This document shows positions 16,620-44,524 of a DNA stretch of 64,000 bases, piece after piece. Position 1 is the stretch's first letter, and each line of letters opens with the position of its first letter. The notes below the pieces were generated by a model that searched no databases, had not been told where the DNA came from, and was given only the letters and a program-made list of their open reading frames with translations. The DNA lies in the NCBI GenBank assembly GCA_000002445.1, contig CP000070.1:1760001-1824000 (forward strand). Direction: 5' to 3'. A program made the position numbers and the translations under genes. Source of the DNA: Trypanosoma brucei (lineage: Eukaryota).

Positions 16620-16720
16620 GTTAGGTTTATAATAATAATAATAATGATAATGATAATAATGATACGACAGTGTTGTTAGTGTTTGTATACTAAAATAATA
16701 GGAGCAGCAACAATAATTGT
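16620..16720 (+). repeat. 70-bp repeat (partial)
   Basis: The sequence ataataataataatgataatgataataatgatacgacagtgttgttagtgtttgtatactaaaataatagg matches the repeat. Confidence 0.65.
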
Positions 16721-19925: not shown

Positions 19926-20189
19926 AGTTTATTGTGTTAAAAACTTTTTTCTCAATTTTATCAAAACTTACAAAAATATGCTCTTCTTATAAAAATTTTT
20001 CTATTCTAATCAATTTTTAGACATTTTAAAAGTTTATGATAAAAATGTGAAAATTAGAGAAATTTCGAAAAAGTTGATATAAAAGTAGGCTATGGGTATA
20101 AAGTAGTTGTGTGATATAATTTTTAAAAACAGTGCTATTCTAGTTTGGTCTATTTTGTTTGTTTTTCTGTACATTCATTGGGGTTATAC

Positions 20190-20370
20190 TATTAATGTTT
20201 ATAATGATAATAATAATGATAGGAGAATGTTGTGAGTGTGCATATACAAATATTATAATAAAAGCAGTACTAATAATTATAGTGATAGTAGTAATAATAA
20301 TGATGATAGGAGAGTGTTGTGAGTGTGTATATACTGATATAGTAATGACAATAGTGGTTGTATACTAAAG
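20190..20370 (+). repeat. 70-bp repeats (about 2 copies)
   Basis: The core GGAGAATGTTGTGAGTGTGCATATACAAATATTATAATAAAAGCAG occurs twice, each with flanking TRR triplets. Confidence 0.8.
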
Positions 20371-21241
20371 GGAAAAAACAAAAGCATTTAAAATAATGGA
20401 GAGGACGCAAAGAGTATTGTTGATGAAACGCAGGAGGGTAAAGAAAGAGGGAGAGAGGAAAATAAAATATTCGCAGTCCCAAACACAGAAATAATGATTA
20501 AAAGAATCTTACAAAAAGAGATGAAAGAGGATGCAACAATTACGGAAATACAGAACGTAGTACACATTACAAACAGTGTCGCTTTTTTATCATCACCAAA
20601 AAAGCCAGTAGAATAATAAGTAAGAACGCCAATACTGAATGCAAAGAAAGATGCGGGGTAAAAAAACGGTGTATGGATGGAAATTATACAATGGACGAAA
20701 AGTGTGATACATATTTCGCAAAAACATGCTTATTTACCCCTAAGAAGATGATGATATCTGTATTTTGTGATTTGATGGGCTATCTTAATGCGCAGAGCTG
20801 TTTACCAAGGCGGTTGGCCGACAAGGCACCCAGGGCAGAGTTTCAATTCTGGGAAATAGGCGACAATAAAAAGGCAAGTTAGAATTTTGAGGGGTAATTT
20901 GCGGAAGTTTTATAGAGTATCACCAACTATTTTCACAGCGCAAGCGACAAACAATGCTAATATGGAACGAATAATCTTTACTGCCAGCATAGGGGGAAGT
21001 GAACGAACGCCAGTCAAAAACAGACGTAAACAGACACTACGGGAGGCGTCAAACGACCGAAGGTAACATAAAAGCGCTGCTTGAAGCAACAAACTGCGTG
21101 AAACAGACGAAGTAGCAGTGATAACCACCTAATAATCTGTTGAGACTTTGCAACCGTGTAGAAAGTTGCGTCTAGCATTTCCAAGCCACATTTAACCTTA
21201 CAACGGTTCTTCAAGGCAGAAGAAAAAACGAAGCTAAAACA

Positions 21242-28938: not shown

Positions 28939-30907
28939 CCCGCCGGCTCATTCGCGTTGCGCGGGAAGAAGATCAAACCACCTCAGATGTGAATGTTTTT
29001 GCTTACTGAAATAAAACTGTGCTGGGCCAGTCTCGTCGTGTCCGGTGTTTGCGCACCTGAAACTCCCTTTTGTGGTGGAATATCTCCTTTAGGGACTGTT
29101 CGAGTATGTCGGGGTTTTCAGGGGCAGCGCGAACCTACTGCGCGCAGTGGATTGGGCTCATTTTCCAAGGCGGAGTGGTGGCGGTTCTTGGATACACGGC
29201 CGATCCGCAGCTGCGAGTTCGTCAGCGCCAGCCCTTCGGACCTCAGGGGGGGGGAAGTTAGGGCCTGTTTCCCTTTCCAAATCCCCTCAACTACTGTTGC
29301 CTAAAAGAATGCAGGGAGTAGAACCGGAGGGGGGAAACGTTGGGTCCGCCCCGCGTGAAAGCGGTTGGGGCGTACGTCAGGCTTCGCGAGCTGGGGGCGG
29401 TTGTGTTTCGCGTGGGTCCGTTATATTTACCCCTTCCGTTTGTATCCCCACTAAAGAGAAAGTGGTATCCCGATCCACGCTGTATTGCTTCGCCGTGTGC
29501 AATTGCTGTGCCGCTGGGGAGTGCCTTACGGCGTCGTGGGACCGACGTGGCTCGGGGACTTAAGGTGCGCCCTTAAACACCGTGGCTGCTGGCTGGTCAT
29601 GTGTTTATGCTTTGCGATGTGAGGCATTGTGGGGTCGGGCCTTTATGCGGACCCCCGAGGCGTTAGCATGCTTGGTTCTATCGATCATCTCTGTTTGTGC
29701 GCGTATGGTTTCCCCCTCCGTGTTTCGGTGAGGGCAGTGGATGGGGAGATGTCACTGAACAGCGTCGCTGTTGATTATTGTTGCTATGTTATTTTATTTT
29801 CCTAAGGCCACATTGTGGTGCCTAAATACCCGGGTTATCGTCACGCGCATTTATCATTTTTCTATTTAGCCTTTATAGCTGATCCTTCTTTCAAATACAT
29901 TTGCTTGTTCTAGTTTCATATATATATATATTGCAAATGGCAGCTTGGTGCACTTGTTCCGTTGTCGGGGTGATTATTTTCAGAGCGTATATACACCGCT
30001 TGTGGGTGATCGCGGTTTCAAGCCGGTTTACTTTTGTTTTTGAGGACATGTATTGGGGGTGTTACCACTTTTTTGTTCATTGACATTGTACACTTTTTTG
30101 TTTCGGTAAAAAGAAAAAAAACAATGACAGTGATATTTTTTTTTTTCGCTTACCTTCTATATATATACATATATATATATATATATACTTGTCGGTGATA
30201 TGTGTTTGTGTTTGGTGCTGATAATGCTTGCGCTGGGAGTTTCTTTTGTTGGCGTTTGTTTTCTCTGTAAATAAGATCGGCTTTCATTTCACCAATAGTC
30301 CTTGTAATATATCTTTTTTTTTCTTTTTTTTTCTAGGGGGCCATTAGTGCATGTAAGGAGCACTCTTAAGGGAACTTTTGTCAGCAGAATAATCAATGGT
30401 AAGTGTTTTACTTTGGCCATTGCGAGTGCGCTGGACTTTGGGAGCTGGTACTGATACTTCTGTCTTGACGGATTTAAAAAAAAGACAAAAAACTTCACAA
30501 CTATTTCCGAAAGAAAGTAAAGTTTATCCTCTCAAATCAAGTGCGGATCTGTCCCTTTGCACACGCGCTGGTTGACAATAGGTTGATGAGTGACATGTCT
30601 GATCACCTTGTGGTGCGGGTCTTTATTAATTGTCTTGCACTTTATTGATTCATCTGCGCTTTGGCGACTTAGGCGGAGTAGAGGATTGCCAATTCCGTCC
30701 CTTGGAATGGTTTACCGTCTTATTTTATTTTGTTAACCCAGTTGTCTTATGTGTATTCCTTTGTCGGTTGGTGCGAGCTGTGGGTGGGATGCCGATCGTT
30801 TTTTCTTCTGCAACGGCAGAGAGTAGTGCTGATGGATATCGGTAAAGGGTGTTTGCTGCGTCGGTGAAGTAAGTATATCAATAGAAAAGGTACGCATATA
30901 CTAAACA

Positions 30908-32026: not shown

Positions 32027-32644
32027 TCAAGGTCTCGGTGATGTTGCATTACCCCCTCCCACGGCGTCTGCCTCGTCGTCCTCATCTAATATTTCCCAAA
32101 AGTGTTCTGAAGTACATTTCTCCTTCTCAGCCTTCTCCGCTTCTCTCTCAGCATTCCTACTCAACGTCTCGGCTCTGACGGTATACTCATGTGCATCTAG
32201 AAAATTATCTTTCAACCCAAAAACGGCCTTCGTGGTGAGCACCGGTCTCTCGGGTGACTCCCCGCAGAACTTCACAACCTCAGTGAATAACTGACGGACA
32301 CGCCTTTCACTATTCGACAGCTGCGGCTCAATGTACTTAATCGCCCTGTAGTACTGGTCCGCCAGCTTCTTTCGCTGTGCATTGACAGCGTCAACCAACT
32401 CCTTCTGTTCATTCGACTTCACAATTGCGTCACATCTCTTCTTCACAACTTCAGCCCGCTCGGTGGCACGATCAAACCTGTGCCAAACATTAACTAAACG
32501 CATGTTTAAGCGACCATACGAAACTTTCAACCCCAGGCAATACCGCAATCGGCGCGTCGTTGATAGAGCGACGCTCCCCCCCACATTGCACAGAATGGCA
32601 ATGAAAAGGCACACGATGATTTTCTTCGCTAGATTCATTGTCAC
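32027..32644 (-). CDS. secreted acidic-tail protein, family member G6
   Basis: It opens with signal peptide MTMNLAKKIIVCLFIAILCNVGG and carries the family motifs QYYRAIKYIEPQL and CGESPERPVLTT (its CGFW motif is diverged). It has no hydrophobic C-terminus. Confidence 0.65.
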   Translation of the reverse strand: MTMNLAKKIIVCLFIAILCNVGGSVALSTTRRLRYCLGLKVSYGRLNMRLVNVWHRFDRATERAEVVKKRCDAIVKSNEQKELVDAVNAQRKKLADQYYRAIKYIEPQLSNSERRVRQLFTEVVKFCGESPERPVLTTKAVFGLKDNFLDAHEYTVRAETLSRNAEREAEKAEKEKCTSEHFWEILDEDDEADAVGGGNATSPRP

Positions 32645-32699
32645 ACACTTGTCTCTCCTATGTACCGCATGAAATTAAAAAAGAAAAACAGAATAATAT

Positions 32700-33043
32700 C
32701 TTTTGGGCAAGACAATACGAAAAGGGCAATGCAACATATGCAGGAGAGAGACAGTTTCCTCCTTCCCTCAAACAATAGACACACGCCACACTACAGTCTC
32801 ACAATCACATTGGTTATTTAAAAGCACTCACAACACTGTAAAAGGGACAAAAAGTCACTTCAAGCAAAGCATTACTTAGCATGCGGTTACGTAGATATTC
32901 ATATTGTTGCATGCCCTCCGTCACACGTTGGTACGTTGGAACATGCTAACATCAACCATCCGTCCGTCCACACACACACGCACATACCGCTATTTAAAGC
33001 GGTTTCTATACATCATTCCACTACCCAGATCCCTTATGGAAAA
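32700..33043 (+). repeat. conserved intergenic module R (truncated copy)
   Basis: It matches catatgcaggagagagacagtt...ccgctatttaaagc...cccttatggaaaa. Confidence 0.8.
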
Positions 33044-33329
33044 GTTAGTCCTTCCACTTGATACAACGCACGACGTCTCCTTACGACGCAGTATGTTATG
33101 TACAGAAAATAAAATCAAGTAAAGGTGTAGAAAGAGTGACGAAAAAGTGGCATGGTAAGTTGTTATGTGTCCCGCATCAGTATCATTCGAACAGTCGCTG
33201 CCAATACCGCCAAGGATGTGACCAACATGGCACTCAAAATTCCACCAAGCACTCGCACGAACCAGTGCCACTGCCGTCCCATACGCTCGCGGTGAATTCC
33301 TATCCAGCCTACCCATTACTCGGAACCGA

Positions 33330-34013
33330 TCACTGCGAGGTTACATTTTCACCACCAACAGGCGGGGCAGTGCCTTCGGGCGTTTCGGATGCTGCGCTTC
33401 CATCGTTGGGCTCCCCACCTTCTTTCTCTGGCTTTTTGTCTCCCTCTCCGCCCAATGCGTTCTTCGATTCAGCGGAACTGCATTGTGTCGTTCTGGCTTT
33501 CACTTCGCTTGTCTCCGCTTCCCTTGACAGCACCTCCATCTTTGATACTAAAGATTTGGCCTTCCACAATTTGACTCTCGCTTCACGCTTGAGCTCAGAA
33601 GACACTGGCATGAAAGACGACCAGAAGCCGCAATGCTTTCTTATACCATTAAGCAACTCGCGCACGTCTTTCTTGTACTCAATTACCTGAGTCTCAATAT
33701 ATCTAATGGCATTGTATTGTTCCACTACTAATTTCACTTTATCCGAGTTAGCGTTTTCCGTCCCTTCCCTAGTTTCACTTAGTCTAGCAGCCTTCTCACA
33801 GGATGTCCTCACAACCTTTGCACGATCCCGGCTACCATGAAGGGCCTGAAGCAAGGCTGTGCAGCGGCCACTTATTGAATTAATTGATCTTCTCAGTGAA
33901 TCACAATATCTCTCTCGCACTACCCTCTTGCTGAATGCAATACCACCCTGCACACTACATAGCATAGAAACGACAAGGCACACGGTGGCACCCCGCGCAA
34001 GCCTCATGGCCAT
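33330..34013 (-). CDS. secreted acidic-tail protein, family member G5
   Basis: It opens with signal peptide MAMRLARGATVCLVVSMLCSVQGG and carries EQYNAIRYIETQV and CGFWSSFMPVSSEL. Its tail is acidic and Gly-rich. Confidence 0.7.
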   Translation of the reverse strand: MAMRLARGATVCLVVSMLCSVQGGIAFSKRVVRERYCDSLRRSINSISGRCTALLQALHGSRDRAKVVRTSCEKAARLSETREGTENANSDKVKLVVEQYNAIRYIETQVIEYKKDVRELLNGIRKHCGFWSSFMPVSSELKREARVKLWKAKSLVSKMEVLSREAETSEVKARTTQCSSAESKNALGGEGDKKPEKEGGEPNDGSAASETPEGTAPPVGGENVTSQ

Positions 34014-34069
34014 CCTTGAAGACTACTTCCACAAACGAAAGTTATAAAAAAAAAAAGAAAAACAGAATA

Positions 34070-34560
34070 ATATCTTTTGGGCAAGACAATACGAAAAGGG
34101 CAATGCAACATATGCAGGAGAGAGACAGTTCCCTCCTTCCCTCAAACAATACACACACGCCACACTACAGTCTCAAAATCACATTGGTTATTTAAAAGCA
34201 CTCACAACACTGTAAAAGGGACAAAAAGTCACTTCAAGCAAAGCATTACTTAGCATGCGATTACGTAGATATTCATATTGTTGCATGCCCTCCGCCACAC
34301 GTTGGTACGTTGGAACATGCTAACATCAACCATCCGTCCGTCCACACACACACGCACACACCGCTATTTAAAGCAGTTTCTATACATCATTTCATTACCC
34401 AAATCCCTTATGGAAAAATAGAACCCGGAGCACGTCGCCGATCTGTTTATATCTTCAATAAAAAGAACAAAAAGTAAAGCATATTAATGTTATAAAGCAA
34501 TAAAGGAAAGCCACAGCACGCAGCTGAATAACTTGTTATCGTCTAAGAGACCATAATTCT
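34070..34560 (+). repeat. conserved intergenic module R, variant with the ggagcacgtcgccgatctg extension
   Basis: It matches the R core and also the reverse complement of 3290..3440. Confidence 0.8.
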
Positions 34561-34723
34561 GCCACCACTGCCCATCGGGCTGAAAGAACAGATGAGTGTA
34601 GCAATACTCTCGGCGGCCACATTAAGAAACAGCCTGTCGCATCCCTTTAGTATTCAGCGTGCCTTACATTCTCCTCAGCAGCGTAGTTAGCATCCACCCC
34701 CATTCCAGTTATCACTTAATGGC

Positions 34724-35437
34724 TCAATTAGCAGATTCTGTGCCCGCATGTTCCTCACGGGTCTCGGACGAGGTAGTGGACGTGGCCCTATCGAGCTCAC
34801 GAGTTCCGACAGTTGGAGTGGTGTCTTGTAGTGAGTCACCGCCACTTTGCGGCTCCGCTTCACTTCTTGTGACTTCCTCCTGCGTATCTGTAGCTGGCGC
34901 GGAGCACCACTCCCCTGAAGCGTGAGAAGCATAAGATTTCGCATTTTCACTGAGTGATTCCACCTTCGATATCAATTCTGAAGCCTCCTCAAGGTGGCGT
35001 TTTGTGATATCACGCAGAAACGAGGATACGGGAGTGAAAGACAACCAGAAGCCGCAGTGCTTTCCCAAACCGATTAATAAATCGTGAATTTTTTTTTCGT
35101 AATCGGATATCTGCCGTTCATTATACATAATAGCGTTGTAGTACTCATTCACTAATTTCATTTTATCCGAGTTAGCAGCATCACTCACTTCCTTCTCTTC
35201 ACTTAACTTAACAAACCTTTCGCAATTTTCTTTAACATTCTCCACCTTATGAAGTGCATCCTCAAAAACATTCCAGGTGTCAGTAAACCGCTTCCCCAAT
35301 TCCTCAACTGTTGCCTTCAACTTTGTACAGTATCCCCCTTTTTTTTCAACCAGAGAAAAACCACGCACGCCCCCCACATTGCACAGAATGGCAATGAAAA
35401 GGCACACGATGATTTTCTTCGCTAGATTCATTGTCAC
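34724..35437 (-). CDS. secreted acidic-tail protein, family member G4
   Basis: It opens with signal peptide MTMNLAKKIIVCLFIAILCNVGG and carries NEYYNAIMYNERQI and CGFWLSFTPVSSFL. Its tail is S/T/E-rich. Confidence 0.7.
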   Translation of the reverse strand: MTMNLAKKIIVCLFIAILCNVGGVRGFSLVEKKGGYCTKLKATVEELGKRFTDTWNVFEDALHKVENVKENCERFVKLSEEKEVSDAANSDKMKLVNEYYNAIMYNERQISDYEKKIHDLLIGLGKHCGFWLSFTPVSSFLRDITKRHLEEASELISKVESLSENAKSYASHASGEWCSAPATDTQEEVTRSEAEPQSGGDSLQDTTPTVGTRELDRATSTTSSETREEHAGTESAN

Positions 35438-35499
35438 ACACTTGTCTCTCCTATGTACCGCATGAAATTAAAAAAGAAAAACAGAATAATATCTTTTGG

Positions 35500-36060
35500 G
35501 CAAGACAATACGGAAAGCACATGTACATCCATATGCAGGAGAAAGACAGTTTCCTCCTTCCCTCAAACAATAGACACACGCCACACTACAGTCTCAAAAT
35601 CACGTTGGGTATTTAAAAGCACTCACAACACTGTAAAAGGGACAAAAAGTCACTTCAAGCAAAGCATTACTTAGCATGCGATTACGTAGATATTCATATT
35701 GTTGCATGCCCTCCGTCACACGTTGGTACGTTGGAACATGCTAACATCAACCATCCGTCCGTCCACACACACACGCACACACCGCTATTTAAAGCGGTTT
35801 CTATACATCATTTCATCACCCAATTCCCTTATGGAAAAATAGAACGACCACCATGGCACTTTTCCCACAAGCTCATCAGGCCCAAAGGAAGAAAATGAAC
35901 AATCTACATATTGCGTTTAGTATAGTGTAAGTGAAAAATAAAGCAATAAAAACAACACTAGTGAACACCGACACGACCCTTCACCACATAAACAGGACCA
36001 TTACTATTAACACTGTTCTAACAAACTAACCGACCAATAATTGAGCGATAATCACACTAT
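35500..36060 (+). repeat. conserved intergenic module R
   Basis: It is near-identical to 31283..31828 and 39420..39960. Confidence 0.85.
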
Positions 36061-36132
36061 CTACGATAAAACAAAAAAGGTATTCTACCCAACAGCTGCT
36101 GGATCACTATAAACACATCATGCCCAAATCCA

Positions 36133-39100
36133 TTATTGCACAGACACACCCTCGGCACCTACGGATCCAGCAGTTTCTTTAGGTCCAGCACTTCCCTCAG
36201 ATCCAGCACTTTCTTTGGGTCCAGCAGTTTCTTTGGGTCCAGCAGCTTCTTTAGGTCCAGCATTTCCCTCAGATCCAGCACTTCCCTCAGATCCAGCACT
36301 TTCTTTAGGTCCAGCACTTTCTTTAGGTCCAGCACTTCCCTCAGATCCAGCACCTTCTTTAGGTTCAGCAGTTTCTTTAGGTCCAACACTTTCCTCAGAT
36401 CCAGCACCTTCTTTAGGTCCAGCAGTTTCTTTGGGTCCAGCAGCTTCTTTAGGCCCAGCACTTCCCTCAGATCCAGCACTTTCTTCAGGTCCAGCAGTTT
36501 CTTTAGGTCCAGCACTTCCCTCAGATCCAGCACTTTCTTTAGGTCCAGCAGTTTCTTTAGGTCCAGCACTTTCCTCAGATCCAGCACTTTCTTTGGGTCC
36601 AGCAGTTTCTTTGGGTCCAGCACTTTCTTTAGGTCCAGCAGCTTCTTTAGGTCCAGCACTTCCCTCAGATCCAGCACCTTCTTTAGGTCCAGCAGCTTCT
36701 TTAGGTCCAGCACTTCCCTCAGATCCAGCACTTTCTTTGGGTCCAGCAGTTTCTTTGGGTCCAGCAGCTTCTTTAGGTCCAGCACTTCCCTCAGATCCAG
36801 CACTTTCTTTAGGTCCAGCAGTTTCTTTAGGTCCAGCACTTTCCTCAGATCCAGCACTTTCTTTAGGTCCAGCACTTTCTTTAGGTCCAGCACTTCCCTC
36901 AGATCCAGCACCTTCTTTAGGTTCAGCAGTTTCTTTAGGTCCAACACTTTCCTCAGATCCAGCACCTTCTTTAGGTCCAGCAGTTTCTTTGGGTCCAGCA
37001 GCTTCTTTAGGCCCAGCACTTCCCTCAGATCCAGCACTTTCTTTAGGTCCAGCAGTTTCTTTAGGTCCAGCACTTCCCTCAGATCCAGCACCTTCTTTAG
37101 GTTCAGCAGTTTCTTTAGGTCCAGCACTTCCCTCAGATCCAGCACTTTCTTTGGGTCCAGCACTTTCTTTGGGTCCAGCACTTTCTTTAGGTCCAGCACT
37201 TCCCTCAGATCCAGCACCTTCTTTAGGTTCAGCAGTTTCTTTAGGTCCAGCACTTTCTTTAGGTCCAGCACTTTCCTCAGATCCAGCACTTTCTTTGGGT
37301 CCAGCAGTTTCTTTGGGTCCAGGACTTTCTTTAGGTCCAGCAGTTTTTTTAGGTCCAGCACTTTCTTTAGGTCCAGCACTTCCCTCAGATCCAGCACTTT
37401 CTTTAGGTCCAGCACTTTCTTTAGGTCCAGCAGTTTTTTTAGGTCCAGCACTTTCTTTAGGTCCAGCACTTCCCTCAGATCCAGCACTTTCTTTAGGTCC
37501 AGCAGTTTCTTTAGGTCCAGCACTTTCCTCAGATCCGGCACTTTCTTTAGGTCCAGCAGCTTCTTTAGGTCCAGCACTTCCCTCAGATCCAGCACTTTCT
37601 TTAGGTCCAGCACTTTCTTTAGGTCCAGCAGTTTCTTTGGGTCCAGCAGCTTCTTTAGGTCCAGCACTTCCCTCAGATCCAGCACTTTCTTTAGGTCCAG
37701 CAGTTTCTTTAGGTCCAGCACTTTCCTCAGATCCAGCACTTTCTTTGGGTCCAGCAGTTTCTTTGGGTCCAGCACTTTCTTTAGGTCCAGCAGCTTCTTT
37801 AGGTCCAGCACTTCCCTCAGATCCAGCACCTTCTTTAGGTCCAGCAGCTTCTTTAGGTCCAGCACTTCCCTCAGATCCAGCACTTTCTTTGGGTCCAGCA
37901 GTTTCTTTGGGTCCAGCAGCTTCTTTAGGTCCAGCACTTCCCTCAGATCCAGCACTTTCTTTAGGTCCAGCAGTTTCTTTAGGTCCAGCACTTTCCTCAG
38001 ATCCAGCACTTTCTTTGGGTCCAGCAGTTTCTTTGGGTCCAGCAGTTTCTTTGGGTCCAGCAGTTTCTTTGGGTCCAGCAGCTTCTTTAGGTCCAGCACT
38101 TCCCTCAGATCCAGCACCTTCTTTAGGTCCAGCAGCTTCTTTAGGTCCAGCACTTCCCTCAGATCCAGCACTTTCTTTGGGTCCAGCATTTCCCTCAGAT
38201 CCAGCACTTCCCTCAGATCCAGCATTTCCCTCAGATCCAGCACTTCCCTCAGGTCCAGCACCTTCTTTAGGTCCAGCACTTTCTTTAGGTCCAGCACTTT
38301 CTTTGGGTCCAGCACTTCCCTCAGATCCAGCACTTCCCTCAGATCCAGCACTTTCTTTAGGTCCAGTACTTTCTTTGGGTCCGGCACTTTCTTTAGGTCC
38401 AGCACTTTCTTTAGGTCCAGTACTTTCTTTGGATCCAGCACTTTCTTTAGGTCCAGTACTTTCTTTGGGTCCAGCACTTCCCTCAGATCCAGCACTTCCC
38501 TCAGGTCCAGCACCTTCTTTAGGTCCAGCACTTTCTTTAGGTCCAGCACTTTCTTTAGGTCCAGCACTTCCCTCAGATCCAGCACTTCCCTCAGATCCAG
38601 CACTTTCTTTAGGTCCAGTACTTTCTTTGGGTCCGGCACTTTCTTTAGGTCCAGCACTTTCTTTAGGTCCAGCACTTTCCTCAGATCCAGCACCTTCTTT
38701 AGGGTCGACAAGACCCCCAGGCGTGACGGGGGTACCTTGCGTTTTGGGCGACTCTAAGGAAGTTGGACTGCTATTTTTTGTTTTGTTTGTCCTATTGACC
38801 TCTTTTTCGGTGGACATTTCGTCGGTTTCTGTGCCAGGATCAAGGAAAGTGCATATTCCCTCTTTTAGATTTTCCCCGTAATACCTGGCATCAAAACTAA
38901 GAGCCTCAATTCTTGCCGTAAGAAATTTGACCTGTAACAAATTGGTAGTTGTATACCGGTGTACCTCATCAGATAATAGCGTGAAAGACACCCAAAAGCC
39001 ACATTCTTTTTTAATGTTGCCAACCAATTCGTGTACCTTCTTTTCGTGGTCATCAACCTTGCGTTTTATAAGAAGGATGGCATCATTGTACCCATCCAGT

Positions 39101-39417
39101 ATCTTTATTCGCTCCCATGCAAAAGTACTCCTACCACTGGTGTCAAGTATCCTACAGTTAACAACCTCCTCCCTAACATTTACAAGTGAACGCTTGACGT
39201 CACGTTTTGCCTGCTCCAAACGATTATTAATATCAAATAAAAGACGCTTCATTCTTGCACAATATCTCGCTCTGCTCTCCCATCTATTAAAAAAACTGCT
39301 GGCATCAACAACATATGATGTATGCACCACAAAAAATAGCACAATACACCACAGAACATGCATTTTCTTCAACGACAACAACACAAAAACAATAAAAAAA
39401 AACAATAGCACATGCAC
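36133..39417 (-). CDS. family member G3 with a giant hexapeptide-repeat tail (1094 aa; an alternative start at 39363)
   Basis: The N-domain (RYCARMK...DGYNDAILLIKRKV...CGFWVSFTLLSDEV) differs from siblings in its signal peptide (MHVLWCIVLFFVVHTSYVVDASS). About 140 units of GPKESA/GPKETA/GSEGSA/GPKEAA follow. The C-terminus SAGSVGAEGVSVQ is identical to that of G2. Confidence 0.7.
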   Translation of the reverse strand: MHVLLFFFIVFVLLSLKKMHVLWCIVLFFVVHTSYVVDASSFFNRWESRARYCARMKRLLFDINNRLEQAKRDVKRSLVNVREEVVNCRILDTSGRSTFAWERIKILDGYNDAILLIKRKVDDHEKKVHELVGNIKKECGFWVSFTLLSDEVHRYTTTNLLQVKFLTARIEALSFDARYYGENLKEGICTFLDPGTETDEMSTEKEVNRTNKTKNSSPTSLESPKTQGTPVTPGGLVDPKEGAGSEESAGPKESAGPKESAGPKESTGPKESAGSEGSAGSEGSAGPKESAGPKESAGPKEGAGPEGSAGSEGSAGPKESTGPKESAGSKESTGPKESAGPKESAGPKESTGPKESAGSEGSAGSEGSAGPKESAGPKESAGPKEGAGPEGSAGSEGNAGSEGSAGSEGNAGPKESAGSEGSAGPKEAAGPKEGAGSEGSAGPKEAAGPKETAGPKETAGPKETAGPKESAGSEESAGPKETAGPKESAGSEGSAGPKEAAGPKETAGPKESAGSEGSAGPKEAAGPKEGAGSEGSAGPKEAAGPKESAGPKETAGPKESAGSEESAGPKETAGPKESAGSEGSAGPKEAAGPKETAGPKESAGPKESAGSEGSAGPKEAAGPKESAGSEESAGPKETAGPKESAGSEGSAGPKESAGPKKTAGPKESAGPKESAGSEGSAGPKESAGPKKTAGPKESPGPKETAGPKESAGSEESAGPKESAGPKETAEPKEGAGSEGSAGPKESAGPKESAGPKESAGSEGSAGPKETAEPKEGAGSEGSAGPKETAGPKESAGSEGSAGPKEAAGPKETAGPKEGAGSEESVGPKETAEPKEGAGSEGSAGPKESAGPKESAGSEESAGPKETAGPKESAGSEGSAGPKEAAGPKETAGPKESAGSEGSAGPKEAAGPKEGAGSEGSAGPKEAAGPKESAGPKETAGPKESAGSEESAGPKETAGPKESAGSEGSAGPKETAGPEESAGSEGSAGPKEAAGPKETAGPKEGAGSEESVGPKETAEPKEGAGSEGSAGPKESAGPKESAGSEGSAGSEGNAGPKEAAGPKETAGPKESAGSEGSAGPKETAGSVGAEGVSVQ
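36160..38705 (-). repeat. 18-nt tandem repeat array of about 140 units (GGACCTAAAGAAAGTGCT and variants), coding
   Basis: Perfect 18-nt periodicity is visible on the plus strand as ggtccagcactttcttta / ggatctgagggaagtgct variants. All six frames are open across it, which produces the artefactual overlapping ORFs. Confidence 0.95.
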
Positions 39418-39419
39418 AT

Positions 39420-39960
39420 GCAGGAGAGAGACAGTTCCCTCCTTCCCTCAAACAATAGACACACGCCACACTACAGTCTCAAAATCACGTTCAGCATTTA
39501 ACAGCATACACGACACTGTAAAAGGGACAAAAAGTCACTTCAAGCAAAGCATTACTTAGCATGCGGTTACGTAGATATTCATATTGTTGCATGCCCTCCG
39601 TCACACGTTGGTACGTTGGAACATGCTAACTCCCTTATCTCACGGCCGCTCCTCCCCACCGCTATTTAAAGCGGTCCTAACGTAATCTTATAACTAACCG
39701 GATCCCTTATGGAAAAATAGAACGACCACCATGGCACTTTTCCCACAAGCTCATCAGGCCCAAAGGAAGAAAATAAACAATCTAAATGATATCAATAATA
39801 TAATGTAAAAATAAAGCAATAAAAACAACACTAGTGAACACCGACACGACCCTTCACCACATAAACAGGACCATTACTATTAACAGTGTTCTAACAAACT
39901 AACCGACCAATAATTGAGCGATAATCACACTATCTACGATAAAACAAAAAAGGTATTCTA
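39420..39960 (+). repeat. conserved intergenic module R
   Basis: It is near-identical to 35500..36060. Confidence 0.85.
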
Positions 39961-40005
39961 CCCAACAGCTGCTGGATCATTATAAACACATCATGCCCAA
40001 ATCCA

Positions 40006-43000
40006 TTATTGCACAGACACACCCTCGGCACCTACGGATCCAGCACTTTCTTTAGGTCCAGCAGTTTCTTTGGGTCCAGCACTTTCTTTAGGTCCAGCAC
40101 TTCCCTCAGATCCAGCACTTTCTTTGGGTCCAGCAGTTTCTTTGGGTCCAGCACTTCCCTCAGATCCAGCACTTTCTTTAGGTCCAGCAGTTTCTTTAGG
40201 TCCAGCACTTTCCTCAGATCCGGCACTTTCTTTAGGTCCAGCACTTTCTTTAGGTCCAGCAGTTTCTTTGGGTCCAGCAGTTTCTTTGGGTCCAGCACTT
40301 CCCTCAGATCCAGCAGTTTCTTTGGGTCCAGCACTTCCCTCAGATCCAGCACCTTCTTTAGGTCCAGCATTTCCCTCAGATCCAGCACTTCCCTCAGATC
40401 CAGCACTTTCTTTAGGTCCAGCACTTCCCTCAGATCCGGCACTTTCTTTAGGTCCAGCACTTTCTTTGGGTCCAGCACTTTCTTTAGGTCCAGCATTTCC
40501 CTCAGATCCAGCACTTCCCTCAGATCCAGCACTTTCTTTAGGTCCAGCACTTTCTTTAGGTCCAGCACTTCCCTCAGATCCAGCACCTTCTTTAGGTCCA
40601 GCACTTTCTTTAGGTCCAGCAGCTTCTTTAGGTCCAGCACTTTCTTTAGGTCCAGCAGTTTCTTTAGGTCCAGCACTTTCCTCAGATCCGGCACTTTCTT
40701 TAGGTCCAGCACTTTCTTTGGGTCCGGCACTTTCTTTAGGTCCAGCAGCTTCTTTAGGTCCAGCACTTTCCTCAGATCCGGCACTTTCTTTAGGTCCAGC
40801 ACTTTCCTCAGATCCAGCAGCTTCTTTAGGTCCAGCACTTTCCTCAGATCCAGCAGTTTCTTTAGGTTCAGCACTTTCTTTAGGTCCAGCACTTTCCTCA
40901 GATCCGGCACTTTCTTTAGGTCCAGCACTTTCTTTGGGTCCAGCACTTTCCTCAGATCCAGCAGCTTCTTTAGGTCCAGCACTTTCCTCAGATCCAGCAG
41001 TTTCTTTAGGTCCAGCACTTTCCTCAGATCCAGCAGTTTCTTTAGGTTCAGCACTTTCTTTAGGTCCAGCACTTTCTTTAGGTCCAGCACCTTCTTTAGG
41101 TCCAGCACTTTCTTTAGGTCCAGCACTTTCTTTAGGTCCAGCACCTTCTTTAGGTCCAGCACTTTCCTCAGATCCAGCAGTTTCTTTAGGTTCAGCACTT
41201 TCTTTAGGTCCAGCACTTTCTTTAGGTCCAGCAGCTTCTTTAGGTCCAGCACTTTCTTTAGGTCCAGCACCTTCTTTAGGTCCAGTACTTTCTTTAGGTC
41301 CAGCACTTTCTTTAGGTCCAGCACCTTCTTTAGGTCCAGCACTTTCTTTAGGTCCAGCAGCTTCTTTAGGTCCAGCAGCTTCTTTAGGTCCAGCACTTCC
41401 CTCAGATCCAGCACCTTCTTTAGGTCCAGCATTTCCCTCAGATCCAGCATTTCCCCCAGATCCAGCACTTTCTTTGGGTCCAGCATTTCCCTCAGATCCA
41501 GCATTTCCCCCAGATCCAGCACTTTCTTTGGGTCCAGCACTTTCCTCAGATCCAGCAGCTTCTTTAGGTCCAGCACTTTCTTTAGGTCCAGCACTTTCTT
41601 TAGGTCCAGCAGCTTCTTTAGGTCCAGCAGCTTCTTTAGGTCCAGCACTTCCCTCAGATCCAGCACCTTCTTTAGGTCCAGCATTTCCCTCAGATCCAGC
41701 ATTTCCCCCAGATCCAGCACTTTCTTTGGGTCCAGCATTTCCCTCAGATCCAGCATTTCCCCCAGATCCAGCACTTTCTTTGGGTCCAGCACTTTCTTTA
41801 GGTCCAGCACTTTCTTTAGGTCCAGCACTTTCTTTAGGTCCAGCAGCTTCTTTAGGTCCAGCATTTCCCTCAGATCCAGCAGCTTCTTTAGGTCCAGCAC
41901 TTTCCTCAGATCCAGCACCTTCTTTAGGTTCAGCACTTTCTTTAGGTCCAGCACTTTCTTTAGGTCCAGCAGCTTCTTTAGGTCCAGCATTTCCCTCAGA
42001 TCCAGCATTTCCCCCAGATCCAGCACTTTCCTCAGATCCGGCACTTTCTTTAGGTCCAGCACTTCCCTCAGATCCAGCAGCTTCTTTAGGTCCAGCACTT
42101 TCTTTGGGTCCAGCAGCTTCTTTAGGTCCAGCACTTCCCTCAGATCCAGCAGCTTCTTTAGGTCCAGCATTTCCCTCAGATCCAGCATTTCCCCCAGATC
42201 CAGCACTTTCTTTGGGTCCAGCATTTCCCTCAGATCCAGCAGTTTCTTTAGGTCCGGCAGTTTCTTTGGGTCCAGCACTTTCTTTAGGTCCAGCAGTTTC
42301 TTTAGGTCCAGCACTTTCCTCAGATCCAGCACTTTCTTTAGGTCCAGCAGCTTCTTTAGGTCCAGCACTTTCCTCAGATCCAGCACTTTCTTTGGGTCCA
42401 GCAGCTTCCTTGGTGGTGACCGTTTCTTTTGGCGACTGGGATGTCGCACCACTGCTTTTGGGTTCCTCTTGTTTTTTCTTTGCCTTTTCTTCCTCCTCCC
42501 CCGCCAATACATTCTCTGTCCCCACCAAGACGCATCTGTTTCTTGCGGCGGTATCGCTGTGATTTTTTGCACCAAGACTGAGTTTGTCTATCATTATCGT
42601 TAGGGATCTTGCTTCTAACAGTTTTTCTTTAACAGTTCTTTTGAATGACGATGTGAGTGGCATGAAAGACAACCAGAAGCCGCAGCCGTTCCATATTTCA
42701 CCAGTCAAAGTGTTGATCTTCCTTTCGCAATCACCGATGAGCAGTTCAATTTGCCTAATGGCACTGTAGCTCTCGTCTACTAACTTAAGTTTTTCTGAGT
42801 TGGTGGCGCCAGAAACGTCCTTGGCTTTCTTATGCTTCAAAATACCTTCGCATTCTGCTTTTACGGCTAGCGTGTTATTGAACGCACGGTCGAATACGTT
42901 CCATGACTCTGAAAATCGGTTGTTAACTTTGTTAATAACACTTTTGACCTTTTTACAATGAGCTGCTCTGCTTTCCCGCCTCTCGAAACCACGCACGCCC

Positions 43001-43065
43001 CCCACATTGCACAGAATGGCAATGAAAAGGCACACGATGATTTTCTTCGCTAGATTCATTGTCAC
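40006..43065 (-). CDS. family member G2 with a giant hexapeptide-repeat tail (1019 aa)
   Basis: It opens with signal peptide MTMNLAKKIIVCLFIAILCNVGG and carries the N-domain motifs (ESYSAIRQIELLI, CGFWLSFMPLTSSF). About 130 hexapeptide units follow, including GSGGNA/GSEGNA/GPKEGA variants absent from G3. Confidence 0.7.
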   Translation of the reverse strand: MTMNLAKKIIVCLFIAILCNVGGVRGFERRESRAAHCKKVKSVINKVNNRFSESWNVFDRAFNNTLAVKAECEGILKHKKAKDVSGATNSEKLKLVDESYSAIRQIELLIGDCERKINTLTGEIWNGCGFWLSFMPLTSSFKRTVKEKLLEARSLTIMIDKLSLGAKNHSDTAARNRCVLVGTENVLAGEEEEKAKKKQEEPKSSGATSQSPKETVTTKEAAGPKESAGSEESAGPKEAAGPKESAGSEESAGPKETAGPKESAGPKETAGPKETAGSEGNAGPKESAGSGGNAGSEGNAGPKEAAGSEGSAGPKEAAGPKESAGPKEAAGSEGSAGPKESAGSEESAGSGGNAGSEGNAGPKEAAGPKESAGPKESAEPKEGAGSEESAGPKEAAGSEGNAGPKEAAGPKESAGPKESAGPKESAGPKESAGSGGNAGSEGNAGPKESAGSGGNAGSEGNAGPKEGAGSEGSAGPKEAAGPKEAAGPKESAGPKESAGPKEAAGSEESAGPKESAGSGGNAGSEGNAGPKESAGSGGNAGSEGNAGPKEGAGSEGSAGPKEAAGPKEAAGPKESAGPKEGAGPKESAGPKESTGPKEGAGPKESAGPKEAAGPKESAGPKESAEPKETAGSEESAGPKEGAGPKESAGPKESAGPKEGAGPKESAGPKESAEPKETAGSEESAGPKETAGSEESAGPKEAAGSEESAGPKESAGPKESAGSEESAGPKESAEPKETAGSEESAGPKEAAGSEESAGPKESAGSEESAGPKEAAGPKESAGPKESAGPKESAGSEESAGPKETAGPKESAGPKEAAGPKESAGPKEGAGSEGSAGPKESAGPKESAGSEGSAGSEGNAGPKESAGPKESAGPKESAGSEGSAGPKESAGSEGSAGSEGNAGPKEGAGSEGSAGPKETAGSEGSAGPKETAGPKETAGPKESAGPKESAGSEESAGPKETAGPKESAGSEGSAGPKETAGPKESAGSEGSAGPKESAGPKETAGPKESAGSVGAEGVSVQ
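40030..42405 (-). repeat. 18-nt tandem repeat array of about 130 units, coding
   Basis: It has the same 18-nt unit family as 36160..38705 but a different mix and order of variant units. Confidence 0.95.
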
Positions 43066-43129
43066 ACACTTGTCTCTCCTATGTACCGCATGAAATTAAA
43101 AAAGAAAAACAGAATAATATCTTTTGGGC

Positions 43130-43700
43130 AAGACAATAGGGAAAGCACATGTACATCCATATGCAGGAGAAAGACAGTTTCCTCCTTCCCTCAAACAATA
43201 GACACACGCCACACTACAGTCTCACAATCACGTTGGGTATTTAAAAGCACTCACAACACTGTAAAAGGGACAAAAAGTCACTTCAAGCAAAGCATTACTT
43301 AGCATGCGATTACGTAGATATTCATATTGTTGCATGCCCTCCGTCACACGTTGGTACGTTGGAACATGCTAACATCAACCATCCGTCCGTCCACACACAC
43401 ACGCACACACCGCTATTTAAAGCAGTTTCTATACATCATTCCACTACCCAAATGTCCCATGCTTATCCGGAAGCCGGAGCACGTCGCCGATCTGTTCATA
43501 TCTTCAATAAAAAGAACAAAAAGTAAAGCATATTAATGTTATAAAGCAATAAAGGAAAACCACAGCACGCAGCTGAATAACTTGTTATCATCGAAGCAGC
43601 ATCTCAACCTACGTAGCCTTGAGCAAGACGAAGCAACATCTTCCATCGTCGTGTTCCCAATCAAATAAAATCCGTTGACTCCTTCTTACATTCAACTTGT
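43130..43700 (+). repeat. conserved intergenic module R plus G1-type 3' flank
   Basis: It matches the R core. Positions 43440..43670 match the reverse complement of 3203..3440. Confidence 0.8.
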
Positions 43701-43708
43701 CTCATGCT

Positions 43709-44524
43709 CTAATCCACCTCTGCCTGGGCCTCCTTCCCTACCGCAGGTTCAGCAACAACAGCAGGTTCCTCGTCGGCGGTTTTTTCCCCAAGACCTTCTT
43801 GGCTGCTATCGGTGTCACCTTTAGCGGTGTCAGTCGACCTCTTTTCTTCTCTCTGCTCATCCATACTTGTGGGTGATTCAGGAGATTCGGGCACGGGGCC
43901 ATCGGATGTTTCCTCGTTCTGTTTGCCGGAAGTGTCTTCACCAGCACCTGCCTCCTTCTCTCTGCGTTTATCCTCCACCGTGGAGCACTCATCATTCGCC
44001 GCATCAGCGGCATAGCTCGCCGCATCTCCACTAAGAGTTTCAATTTTCGACACCTTGCCTGTAGCTTCAGCCGTCGTCTCCTCAATGCTCCGTTTGAATG
44101 AAATGGTTACTGGCATGAAGGACAACCAAAACCCGCATCGGTCCTTTAGATACACCGTTAGTTTGTGTAAATCGCGCTCGTAGTTCCTAATCTCTGTTCC
44201 GACATACATGATCGCGTTGTAGTACTCATCTACAACTCTCTTCTTTCCGCTGTCTGCAACATCTGTTATCTCATCGTCGCTGACTTTCTTCACGTCCTCG
44301 TCGCACTTTCCCTTGACAACACTGGTTCGCTTGAGAGCAACTTCAAACGTGTGCCATGCGTTTGCATAGCGGGTATTAATGGCCCGAACTGATTTGGCCA
44401 CTGTAGTACAGTATTCTGAGCGGCTTATCCTTCCCCAATGAGAAGAGGACTTGCCTCCAATACTGCATAGCCCGGCCACGAGAATATATAGTGTTACGCC
44501 CCTTGCGAAAACCATTATTTTCAA
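43709..44524 (-). CDS. secreted acidic-tail protein, family member G1
   Basis: It opens with signal peptide MKIMVFARGVTLYILVAGLCSIGG and carries DEYYNAIMYVGTEI and CGFWLSFMPVTISF. Its acidic tail ends AQAEVD. Confidence 0.7.
   Translation of the reverse strand: MKIMVFARGVTLYILVAGLCSIGGKSSSHWGRISRSEYCTTVAKSVRAINTRYANAWHTFEVALKRTSVVKGKCDEDVKKVSDDEITDVADSGKKRVVDEYYNAIMYVGTEIRNYERDLHKLTVYLKDRCGFWLSFMPVTISFKRSIEETTAEATGKVSKIETLSGDAASYAADAANDECSTVEDKRREKEAGAGEDTSGKQNEETSDGPVPESPESPTSMDEQREEKRSTDTAKGDTDSSQEGLGEKTADEEPAVVAEPAVGKEAQAEVD

What the first reader, a model, noticed from the sequence alone, without database searches (positions are those of the whole stretch)
32027..44524. Tandem array of six paralogous predicted-secreted protein genes (G1-G6), plus an inverted seventh copy G0 at 2295-3089, forming a family I cannot place
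All seven ORFs start with a hydrophobic signal peptide. Three of them share the identical peptide MTMNLAKKIIVCLFIAILCNVGG.

They share a roughly 150-aa N-domain with three conserved cysteines. The first is at about residue 35, the second at about 70 (for example KKRCDAIV or KENCERFV), and the third lies in the CGFW motif. The domain also carries the motifs (D/E)xYYNAI(M/R)Y(I/V)(E/G)xQI and CGFW(L/V)SF(M/T)P(V/L)(S/T)xF.

Each N-domain is followed by a sequence-unrelated acidic or low-complexity tail with no C-terminal hydrophobic segment. The family is therefore predicted secreted, not GPI-anchored or transmembrane.

The family occupies the last positions of a minus-strand polycistronic unit, directly abutting a VSG array. 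The N-domains are diverged (roughly 30-40% identity by eye), while the flanks and signal-peptide exons are being homogenised.

I do not recognise the family as ESAG1-8, ISG, procyclin/PAG, BARP or the transferrin receptor. An ESAG9-like family is my best unverified guess. That guess rests on small secreted proteins with a conserved N-domain and variable repeat tails. This is the strongest candidate for an under-described system in the window.
Basis: partly seen in the sequence, partly recalled or inferred. Interest (0 to 1): 0.75.

Follow-up and report, generated by a model that had tools for sequence, protein, structure and literature searches.

The report
Known trypanosome Fam10/SGM1 surface-protein array
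The seven genes are real, but they are an already named Trypanosoma brucei family (cell-surface phylome Fam10, the SGM1 proteins of tsetse-transmitted metacyclic parasites), not ESAG9, and my modelling predicts that their conserved domain is an anchorless three-helix bundle of the kind trypanosomes use for surface receptors.

Summary
The window is T. brucei TREU927 chromosome 7, bases 1,760,001-1,824,000. The seven ORFs are Tb927.7.6550-6600 plus one inverted copy, probably Tb927.7.6490.

This is Fam10 of the 2013 cell-surface phylome (signal peptide yes, GPI no, TM 0; 8 T. brucei and 6 T. congolense genes). It was renamed SGM1 in 2020.
- G6 is SGM1.7, found on the metacyclic surface; antibody or vaccination lowers early parasitaemia.
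- G3 is ESP17, a bloodstream-form surface-proteome protein.
- G4 and G5 were seen by tagging in the flagellar-pocket lumen.

ESAG9 is a separate family (Fam2). An exhaustive profile search found only Fam10 proteins from T. brucei and T. congolense.

- Four conserved cysteines are invariant, not three.
- G1 lacks the CGFW motif.
- True starts are ATGs.
- A roughly 9-kb stretch carrying an ingi retroelement separates the array from the VSGs.

What I add:
- Paralogue lineages predate the brucei/congolense split, while leaders and intergenic DNA are homogenised in both species.
- Hexapeptide-repeat giant tails occur in both species.

Biochemical function and the mode of surface attachment remain unknown. 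Novelty: already known.

The parts
2295..3089 (+). G0, the inverted Fam10 copy (264 aa; AAZ12713, probably Tb927.7.6490). It has a signal peptide, a four-cysteine N-domain and an 88-residue tail of net charge -22.
32027..32638 (-). G1 (203 aa; AAZ12716, Tb927.7.6550 by interpolation). A divergent member without the CGFW motif, and an ancient lineage with a T. congolense reciprocal best hit (P0017).
   Evidence: The protein is identical in four Trypanozoon genomes.
33330..34013 (-). G2, which is Tb927.7.6560 (227 aa; AAZ12717).
   Evidence: One search gives an exact protein match. One search gives chromosome coordinates 1793330-1794013.
34724..35431 (-). G3, which is Tb927.7.6570, also called ESP17 (235 aa). 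It is a bloodstream-form surface-proteome protein.
36133..39363 (-). G4 (1076 aa; Tb927.7.6580 by interpolation). N-domain plus a 905-residue tail made of 140 hexapeptide units (GPKESA/GSEGSA). The repeat DNA spans 36166-38703.
   Evidence: TrypTag places it in the flagellar-pocket lumen.
40006..43059 (-). G5 (1017 aa; Tb927.7.6590 by interpolation). N-domain plus 132 hexapeptide units. The repeat DNA spans 40039-42411.
   Evidence: TrypTag places it in the flagellar-pocket lumen.
43709..44515 (-). G6, which is Tb927.7.6600, also called SGM1.7 (268 aa). It is the Fam10 exemplar.
   Evidence: AF2 model; fold searches.
32639..33329 (-). Conserved intergenic unit (the 3' flank of G2 plus the 5' flank of G1). 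It is one of five such spacers; the others are 34014-34723, 35432-36132, 39364-40005 and 43060-43708.
   Evidence: One search shows 86-98% identity between spacers. One search shows a polypyrimidine tract and an AG 5-63 nt upstream of each ATG.
3426..4130 (.). Family 3' flank downstream of G0. It forms an inverted repeat with 30905-31609, downstream of G1 (97.6% over 705 bp).
23782..28951 (-). Context: ORFs of an ingi-type retroelement (reverse transcriptase, RNase H, zinc fingers) lying between the Fam10 array and the VSG array.
8704..22885 (+). Context: a plus-strand VSG array of four ORFs with VSG A-type, B-type or C-terminal domains. It converges on the Fam10 array.

Best explanation
**Identity.** The locus is the chromosome-7 Fam10 (SGM1) gene array of T. 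brucei: seven intronless genes.

**Protein architecture.** Each gene encodes three parts:
- a cleavable signal peptide;
- a domain of about 150 residues that I predict to be an elongated three-helix bundle, pinned by four invariant cysteines;
- a disordered acidic tail of 28-905 residues with no membrane anchor.

The topology suggests two disulfides. One would join the start of helix 1 to the loop after helix 2. The other would join the end of helix 1 to the end of helix 3.

**Most likely working.** The proteins enter the secretory pathway and leave through the flagellar pocket. They then either stay in the pocket lumen (the two giant-repeat members) or remain peripherally bound to the coat (SGM1.7 on metacyclic forms, ESP17 on bloodstream forms). 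Attachment would be through a protein partner rather than a lipid anchor.

The bundle would then serve as a binding module for a host or vector ligand during transmission and early infection. This is by analogy with its structural neighbours HpHbR, factor H receptor and ISG65.

**Status of each step.**
- Shown here or in the cited papers: gene identity, domain layout, absence of an anchor, expression and localisation.
- Predicted: the fold and the disulfide pairing.
- Inferred only: the partner-mediated attachment and the ligand binding.

**Evolution.** The paralogue lineages are old; at least G1 predates the brucei/congolense split. The leaders, UTRs and spacers are kept nearly identical by gene conversion.
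For: **Identity**
- G2 and G0 match TREU927 proteins exactly.
- Published chromosome coordinates of Tb927.7.6560, 6570 and 6600 equal the window coordinates plus 1,760,000.
- Fam10 is defined on Tb927.7.6600 with signal peptide yes, GPI no, TMH 0, and 8 T. brucei, 6 T. congolense and 0 T. vivax genes.
- SGM1.7 is Tb927.7.6600. It is metacyclic-enriched, detected on the surface by immunofluorescence and immunogold, and antibody or vaccination reduces early parasitaemia.
- Five of the seven Fam10 proteins are in the bloodstream-form surface proteome, and ESP17 sits on the cell-body membrane (the name is confirmed).
- Tb927.7.6580 and 6590 are lumenal flagellar-pocket proteins.

**No anchor**
- Hydropathy scan.
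- Casas-Sanchez 2023 states that Fam10 lacks a TM or GPI signal and that its mode of attachment is undetermined.

**Fold**
- AF2 model of the G6 domain: pLDDT 85.5, pTM 0.78, helices 9-58, 63-103 and 115-151.
- AF2 model of mature G3: bundle pLDDT mostly 92-98, tail below 50.
- For G3, GARP (12.3), TcHpHbR (11.0), MISP (10.9) and FHR (10.6) are all within the top five.
- The Foldseek top hit is GARP, TM 0.71.

**Cysteines**
- The four cysteines are invariant in T. brucei and conserved in T. congolense.

**Evolution**
- G1 and Tco P0017 are reciprocal best hits at 115 bits, against 87 bits for G1's best within-species hit.
- Spacers are 86-98% identical, while mature-domain DNA is barely alignable.
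- T. congolense shows the same pattern: a shared signal peptide and 98-99% identical upstream DNA, with mature domains 20-29% identical.
Against: - There is no sequence-level link to GARP, MISP or HpHbR. Pfam gave nothing and the PDB profile search gave E of 0.43 or worse.
- The alignments behind the models are shallow, at 7 and 14 sequences.
- No ligand or partner is known.
- One paper lists Tb927.7.6490 and Tb927.7.6600 as 'predicted GPI'. That conflicts with the sequence and with two other papers.
- TrypTag localisation was done in tagged procyclic cells and may not reflect the metacyclic situation.
Confidence: 0.8

Rival explanations
1. The family is ESAG9-like: a divergent branch of the stumpy-form secreted ESAG9 proteins (cell-surface phylome Fam2).
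For: - There is a superficial resemblance: small signal-peptide proteins in multiple diverged copies.
- ESAG9 members are reported as released from the cell.
- Tb927.7.6570 rises modestly when the ESAG9 repressor REG9.1 is depleted, log2FC 1.17.
Against: - The phylome places ESAG9 in Fam2 (T. brucei-specific, GPI predicted). This family is Fam10 (shared with T. congolense, no GPI).
- The exhaustive HMMER profile search found no ESAG9. Every full-domain hit I looked up by name was Fam10 or a T. congolense 'cell surface-expressed gene family' protein.
- The REG9.1 study labels Fam2, Fam5 and Fam7 genes but gives the chromosome-7 genes no family label.
- Fam10 expression peaks in metacyclic forms, not stumpy forms.
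Confidence: 0.04
2. The predicted bundle is generic helical or coiled-coil structure. Its resemblance to GARP, HpHbR, MISP and FHR is convergent or trivial, so the fold says nothing about function. The proteins may be structural components, such as flagellar-pocket matrix or coat filler, rather than binders.
For: - No sequence homology to Fam50 or HpHbR was found.
- G4 and G5 carry roughly 850-900-residue hexapeptide tails and sit in the pocket lumen, which fits a matrix-like role.
- MISP, a true bundle protein, is dispensable and has no known ligand.
Against: - In two independent models, four trypanosome surface bundles fill four of the top five places out of 48,164 chains. They align over 140-155 of about 150 residues at 2.3-3.7 Å.
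- Conserved cysteines at the helix ends indicate a fixed globular bundle, not a coiled-coil rod.
- SGM1.7 is exposed to antibody on metacyclic forms.
Confidence: 0.25
3. The proteins are GPI-anchored surface receptors, as listed in one proteomics table.
For: - The TUSK paper's table annotates Tb927.7.6490 and Tb927.7.6600 as 'Predicted GPI'.
- SGM1.7 and ESP17 are surface-associated.
Against: - None of the seven C-termini is hydrophobic. They end in acidic or polar residues such as ...AGDDE and ...AQAEVD.
- The phylome table says GPI 'n'.
- Casas-Sanchez 2023 states that they lack a GPI addition signal.
- G4 and G5 are lumenal.
Confidence: 0.03
4. Some or all copies, especially G1, are decaying pseudogenes at the end of a transcription unit.
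For: G1 lacks the CGFW motif and has the shortest tail. The array also sits beside a retroelement and a silent VSG array.
Against: - All seven ORFs are intact.
- G1 is identical in four Trypanozoon genomes and has a T. congolense orthologue sharing its peculiar features.
- Transcripts are recorded for 6560, 6570 and 6600 and for the family as a whole.
- Five of the seven proteins were detected by mass spectrometry.
- Every gene has a polypyrimidine tract and an AG upstream.
Confidence: 0.02

Closest known systems
Cell-surface phylome Fam10 / SGM1 (salivary gland metacyclic) proteins of T. brucei (Jackson 2013; Gadelha 2015; Vigneron 2020)
   Same: This is that family. The genes are the same (Tb927.7.6550-6600 and the inverted copy). 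The signal-peptide-only architecture, the member count (7) and the chromosome-7 locus all match.
   Different: Nothing differs. What I add is not in the papers I could read:
- the predicted three-helix-bundle fold;
- the four-cysteine signature;
- the ancient-paralogue, homogenised-leader pattern in both species;
- the hexapeptide giant tails in both species.
Fam50 triple-helical-bundle surface proteins (T. congolense GARP, T. brucei BARP, MISP/SGE1, factor H receptor) and the haptoglobin-haemoglobin receptor
   Same: - Both have an N-terminal signal peptide and a bundle followed by a disordered C-terminal tail, as in MISP.
- Both are expressed in tsetse salivary-gland stages (MISP, BARP).
- Both occur as tandem paralogue arrays on chromosome 7 (MISP).
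   Different: - There is no detectable sequence homology.
- The bundle is shorter (about 150 versus about 200 residues) and lacks the multi-helix membrane-distal head seen in MISP.
- The cysteine pattern differs.
- There is no GPI anchor.
- No ligand is known.
ESAG9 (Fam2)
   Same: Both are small signal-peptide proteins in multiple diverged copies with developmentally regulated expression. Some members are released from the cell.
   Different: - It is a separate sequence family, T. brucei-specific and predicted to be GPI-anchored.
- It is stumpy-enriched rather than metacyclic-enriched.
- The profile search found no hit.
ESAG7, the anchorless subunit of the transferrin receptor
   Same: This is a precedent for a trypanosome surface protein with a helical-bundle core and no anchor of its own. 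It is held at the membrane by pairing with a GPI-anchored partner (ESAG6).
   Different: ESAG7 is VSG-related and has a known partner and ligand. For Fam10, a partner is only my hypothesis.

Membership tests
Cell-surface phylome Fam10 / SGM1 | Contains the family exemplar Tb927.7.6600 and its chromosome-7 paralogues. | tested here: met
   Published coordinates of Tb927.7.6560, 6570 and 6600 equal the window coordinates plus 1,760,000. There are exact protein matches to TREU927 records. The Fam10 exemplar is Tb927.7.6600.
Cell-surface phylome Fam10 / SGM1 | Signal peptide present, no GPI signal, no transmembrane helix. | tested here: met
   The hydropathy scan finds only the N-terminal hydrophobic segment in all seven proteins. 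This agrees with Table S1.
Cell-surface phylome Fam10 / SGM1 | Homologues in T. congolense, none in T. vivax. | tested here: met
   The profile search of 1.84 billion representatives gave T. congolense hits at E 8e-29 to 2e-20 across the full domain, and no T. vivax or other species. Absence is only as good as the library.
Cell-surface phylome Fam10 / SGM1 | Metacyclic-enriched expression and surface or pocket localisation. | not testable with these tools
   Literature only.
ESAG9 (Fam2) | Sequence homology to ESAG9 proteins. | tested here: not met
   None of the 17 hits of the exhaustive profile search is an ESAG9. All full-domain hits I looked up by name are Fam10 or its T. congolense relatives. 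The phylome keeps the two families apart.
ESAG9 (Fam2) | Predicted GPI signal (phylome Table S1). | tested here: not met
   There is no C-terminal hydrophobic segment.
ESAG9 (Fam2) | Stumpy-form enrichment and repression by REG9.1. | tested here: inconclusive
   From the published table only: log2FC is +1.17 for 6570, +0.56 for 6600 and +0.33 for 6560 on REG9.1 RNAi. These genes carry no family label there. Fam10 peaks in metacyclic forms.
Trypanosome three-helix-bundle surface proteins (Fam50 GARP/BARP/MISP/FHR; HpHbR) | Elongated twisted three-helix bundle. | tested here: met
   [not shown]
Trypanosome three-helix-bundle surface proteins (Fam50 GARP/BARP/MISP/FHR; HpHbR) | Sequence-level homology to the GARP/BARP family. 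| tested here: not met
   There is no Pfam hit above noise. The PDB profile search gave a best E of 0.43, to unrelated proteins.
Trypanosome three-helix-bundle surface proteins (Fam50 GARP/BARP/MISP/FHR; HpHbR) | GPI anchor at the end of a C-terminal tail. | tested here: not met
Trypanosome three-helix-bundle surface proteins (Fam50 GARP/BARP/MISP/FHR; HpHbR) | Membrane-distal head built from extra short helices and disulfides. | tested here: inconclusive
   The models show only one 5-residue helix in the loop between helices 2 and 3. I had no coordinates to inspect.

The most novel reading that the evidence does not exclude
Fam10 proteins are anchorless three-helix-bundle binders that ride on the metacyclic and early bloodstream coat, or fill the flagellar-pocket lumen, through a protein partner. 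There they capture a host or tsetse factor at the bite site, for example a complement or other innate-immune component, as the fold relatives FHR and ISG65 do. The ancient, deliberately non-homogenised mature domains would give several specificities. The conserved giant hexapeptide tails would form a pocket or coat matrix. This would answer the open question of how Fam10 attaches, and would explain why anti-SGM1.7 antibody lowers early parasitaemia.
Probability: 0.2. Interest if true: 0.6.

Novelty: already known. Interest (0 to 1): 0.27.

Why it matters
The family itself is not new. [quoted passage not shown]

Two things remain open and are of practical interest: what the proteins bind, and how a protein with no anchor stays on the metacyclic surface.

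The predicted fold places Fam10 among the three-helix-bundle proteins that trypanosomes use as receptors for host factors. That gives a concrete, testable direction: ligand and partner pull-downs with recombinant bundles, and structure-guided epitope choice for SGM1.7.

The pattern of ancient paralogues with homogenised leaders and UTRs is found in both T. brucei and T. congolense. It indicates that selection keeps the mature domains different while regulation is kept common.

Tried and rejected
1. Pfam scan of all seven proteins: only sub-threshold noise.
2. Word-indexed homology searches: only the closest orthologues were found, because of index limits.
3. PDB sequence-profile search: no meaningful hit.
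4. AFDB50 fold search, intended to see whether ESAG9 or other T. brucei families share the fold: the library was unavailable.
5. Direct comparison with ESAG9: not possible, because I held no ESAG9 sequence. I relied instead on the exhaustive profile search and the published classification.
6. dN/dS between T. b. brucei and T. b. gambiense:
   - G6 gives 0.77 (8 non-synonymous, 3 synonymous changes), against 0.18 for the neighbouring gene.
   - That is too few changes to conclude anything.
7. Fam5 and Fam7, the REG9.1-regulated families, were considered because of their size and regulation. I rejected them: those genes lie on chromosomes 3 and 9 and have a TM helix.
8. tRNA and Rfam scans of the window, looking for features of the strand-switch region: nothing found.
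9. Disulfide geometry could not be measured, because model coordinates are not exposed.

Full report
**1. Where the window comes from**

Two of the ORFs match T. brucei brucei TREU927 proteins exactly. G2 is AAZ12717 (XP_846276) and G0 is AAZ12713, both on a 2,205,233-bp record.

A published RNA-seq table gives these chromosome-7 coordinates: Tb927.7.6560 at 1793330-1794013, Tb927.7.6570 at 1794724-1795431 and Tb927.7.6600 at 1803709-1804515, all on the reverse strand. These equal G2, G3 and G6 in window coordinates plus 1,760,000.

So the window is chromosome 7, bases 1,760,001-1,824,000. By interpolation, G1 to G6 are Tb927.7.6550 to 6600. From accession order, I infer that G0 is Tb927.7.6490.

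**2. The observation**

The seven ORFs are there. A tblastn of the N-domains against the window finds no eighth copy.

- G1, G3 and G5 begin MNLAKKIIVCLFIAILCNVGG. The 'MT' prefix comes from an upstream in-frame GTG.
- G4 begins at 39363.
- G6 begins at 44515, giving the annotated 268 aa.

The leader of G1, G3 and G5 is identical at the DNA level over the first 62-74 nucleotides of the CDS.

Alignment shows four invariant cysteines, not three.

The motifs are family tendencies rather than rules. G1 has FCGESPERP in place of CGFW, and G0 has CSFW. Only 'AI' is invariant in the YYNAI motif.

Pairwise identity of the domain is 22-40%.

No protein has a hydrophobic stretch after the signal peptide, and no C-terminus is hydrophobic. 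Tails are acidic, with net charge -6 to -59, and consist of 75-99% small or polar residues.

G4 and G5 carry 140 and 132 hexapeptide units, mostly GPKESA, GSEGSA, GPKETA and GPKEAA. These are encoded by an 18-nt repeat.

**3. Flanks**

The spacers between genes are 86-98% identical over 220-610 bp. The mature-domain DNA aligns only in short stretches at 66-71%.

G0 shares the family 3' flank, at 95-98% identity, but not the 5' flank.

Each ATG is preceded within about 5-63 nt by an AG that follows a polypyrimidine tract. This is the usual layout of a trans-splice acceptor. It is a sequence observation, not evidence of use.

**4. Context**

Genes from 62269 down to G1 lie on the minus strand. 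The region from 14 to 22885 is plus-strand and holds G0 followed by four ORFs with VSG domains.

Between the two runs lie ingi-type retroelement ORFs on the minus strand, at 23782-28951, encoding reverse transcriptase, RNase H and zinc fingers. There is also a copy of the family 3' flank.

So the array ends a minus-strand gene run that converges on a VSG array, but about 9 kb of retroelement and flank separates them. No tRNA or Rfam feature marks the convergence.

**5. What it is**

The family is already catalogued and partly characterised:
- **Phylome entry.** Table S1 of the cell-surface phylome lists Fam10 with exemplar Tb927.7.6600, signal peptide yes, GPI no and TMH 0. It has 8 genes in T. 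brucei, 6 in T. congolense and none in T. vivax. ESAG9 is Fam2 (PMC3605285).
- **Surface proteome.** Gadelha et al. 2015 detected five of the seven Fam10 proteins in the bloodstream-form surface proteome. They localised ESP17 to the cell-body membrane (PMC4587319). NCBI names the G3 orthologue 'Enriched in surface-labeled proteome protein 17'.
- **SGM1 naming.** Vigneron et al. 2020 renamed the family SGM1.
  - Expression peaks in metacyclic forms.
  - SGM1.7 (Tb927.7.6600, G6) is on the metacyclic surface by immunofluorescence and immunogold.
  - Anti-SGM1.7 IgG or vaccination lowers early parasitaemia (PMC7007551).
- **Pocket lumen.** The genome-wide tagging project found Tb927.7.6580 and 6590 (G4, G5) to be lumenal flagellar-pocket proteins (PMC9981465).
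- **Open question.** Casas-Sanchez et al. 2023 note that Fam10 lacks a transmembrane or GPI signal, and that how it attaches to the metacyclic membrane is unknown (PMC10089363).

**6. The ESAG9 guess**

ESAG9 is a different phylome family. It is T. brucei-specific and predicted to be GPI-anchored.

A HMMER profile of the seven domains, run against 1.84 billion representatives without a word index, gave 17 hits:
- five T. brucei-group Fam10 clusters;
- seven T. congolense proteins covering the whole domain, mostly named 'Putative cell surface-expressed gene family';
- multi-stretch matches to repetitive proteins, the two I retrieved (P0020, P0021) being coiled-coil-like repeats.

No hit was an ESAG9. 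I could not compare folds with ESAG9 because I had no ESAG9 sequence and the AFDB library was unavailable. A very distant structural relationship is therefore not excluded.

**7. Fold**

AlphaFold2 on the G6 domain with the seven paralogues gave mean pLDDT 85.5 and pTM 0.78. It predicts three long helices at 9-58, 63-103 and 115-151.

A second model used mature G3 with 14 sequences, including T. congolense. It gave the same three helices with pLDDT mostly 92-98, and a tail below 50.

| Target | G6 model | G3 model |
|---|---|---|

These four were first to fourth for G6 and within the top five for G3. T. brucei HpHbR and ISG65 also appear lower in both lists. Foldseek put GARP first, with TM 0.71.

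The cysteines sit at the helix ends. The up-down-up topology puts Cys1 near Cys3 and Cys2 near Cys4, suggesting two stapling disulfides. This is an inference from topology, because I had no coordinates.

I found no paper in the held library that states this fold for Fam10.

**8. Evolution**

G1 and T. congolense P0017 are reciprocal best hits at 115 bits, against 87 bits for G1's best T. brucei paralogue. They share the missing CGFW motif and a C(S/T)SEHFWE(V/I)LD motif. G1 is therefore an old, conserved lineage and not a decaying copy. It is also identical in four Trypanozoon genomes.

Four of the five closer T. congolense proteins (P0015-P0018) match a T. brucei paralogue better than they match each other; P0019 does too by bit score, though more narrowly. 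The low identity between paralogues therefore reflects age.

By contrast, leaders and spacers are kept alike in both species:
- At least five T. congolense proteins share the leader MGPGSRFALLFLALM.
- The 384 bp upstream of three T. congolense genes are 98-99% identical.
- Their mature domains are only 20-29% identical.

A T. congolense member (L006, 1633-6211 and beyond) has the same domain followed by more than 145 copies of an 18-nt repeat encoding PVEPEK-type hexapeptides. Giant hexapeptide tails therefore exist in both species.

In T. b. gambiense the locus is collinear at 98.2% identity over 12.25 kb.

**9. How it most likely works**

- *Shown:* signal peptide, no anchor, expression, and surface or pocket-lumen localisation.
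- *Predicted:* a disulfide-stapled three-helix bundle plus a disordered acidic tail.
- *Inferred:*
  - export through the flagellar pocket;
  - peripheral retention through a protein partner, as ESAG7 is retained by ESAG6, or retention in the pocket lumen for the giant-tail members;
  - use of the bundle as a binding surface for a host or vector molecule during transmission and early infection.

I rate identity at about 0.97, the fold at about 0.8, partner-mediated attachment at about 0.4 and ligand binding at about 0.3.

**10. Verdict**

The family is already known, though, and it is not ESAG9-like.

The residual interest lies in three things: the unresolved attachment and function, the fold prediction, and the conserved leader-homogenisation and repeat-tail pattern across two species.

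Noticed in passing
window 3426-4130 versus 30905-31609; also 5813-6663 versus 28001-28851: The 3' flanks of G0 and G1 form a 705-bp inverted repeat at 97.6% identity. An 851-bp direct repeat at 98% identity, apparently retroelement sequence, lies just inside each. Together they bracket the VSG array, as if the VSGs and ingi had been inserted into, or inverted within, an older Fam10 array.
   Followed up: partly
window 23782-28951, minus strand: ORFs of an ingi-type retroelement with reverse transcriptase, RNase H and C2H2 zinc-finger matches. They are broken into several ORFs.
   Followed up: partly
window 36133-39417 and 40006-43065, all frames on both strands: The 18-nt repeats stay open in several frames on both strands, producing spurious ORFs of 830-890 aa, such as the LDLKKVLDL and FFRSSTSLRSS frames.
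   Followed up: yes
L001 12219-20064 (T. b. gambiense chromosome 7): Between two 100-N gaps, the repeat block lies in inverted orientation relative to TREU927. The 918-aa gene called there reads the wrong frame of the repeat (VLDLKKLLDP...). This is probably a scaffolding or annotation artefact in the gambiense assembly.
   Followed up: partly
L006 1633-6211 (T. congolense contig CAEQ01001771): A Fam10 N-domain is followed by more than 145 copies of an 18-nt repeat encoding PVEPEK-type hexapeptides, preceded by a lysine-rich 126/144-nt repeat. This parallels the GPKESA tails of G4 and G5.
   Followed up: partly
L003 8623-16852 (T. congolense contig CAEQ01001752): The most distant homologue, P0026 (E 9.5e-5 but with the same cysteine pattern), sits between VSG_B-domain genes. 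Association with VSG arrays may therefore recur in T. congolense.
   Followed up: no
L004, L005, L006 (T. congolense): At least five T. congolense family members share the leader MGPGSRFALLFLALM. The upstream DNA of three of them is 98-99% identical, although their mature domains are only about 20-29% identical. This is the same pattern as in G1, G3 and G5.
   Followed up: yes
literature, Tb927.7.6580 and Tb927.7.6490/6600: Two published annotations conflict with the sequence. PMC2771046 calls Tb927.7.6580 a CAMK protein kinase. PMC11732084 lists Tb927.7.6490 and 6600 as 'predicted GPI'. Both look like table or identifier errors.
   Followed up: no
window 14-1432 (+), 45099-47819 (-), 48851-50506 (-): Three neighbouring ORFs:
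- a 472-aa plus-strand ORF upstream of G0 with no Pfam match;
- a 906-aa protein with only a weak FHA-like (Yop-YscD_cpl) match;
- a probable N6-adenine methyltransferase-domain protein.

The last two are conserved neighbours in T. b. gambiense.
   Followed up: no
window 43709-44515 versus L001 10001-10807: G6 differs from its T. b. gambiense orthologue by 8 non-synonymous and 3 synonymous changes (dN/dS 0.77). The neighbouring 906-aa gene gives 0.18. This hints at relaxed or diversifying selection, but the counts are too small to test.
   Followed up: partly
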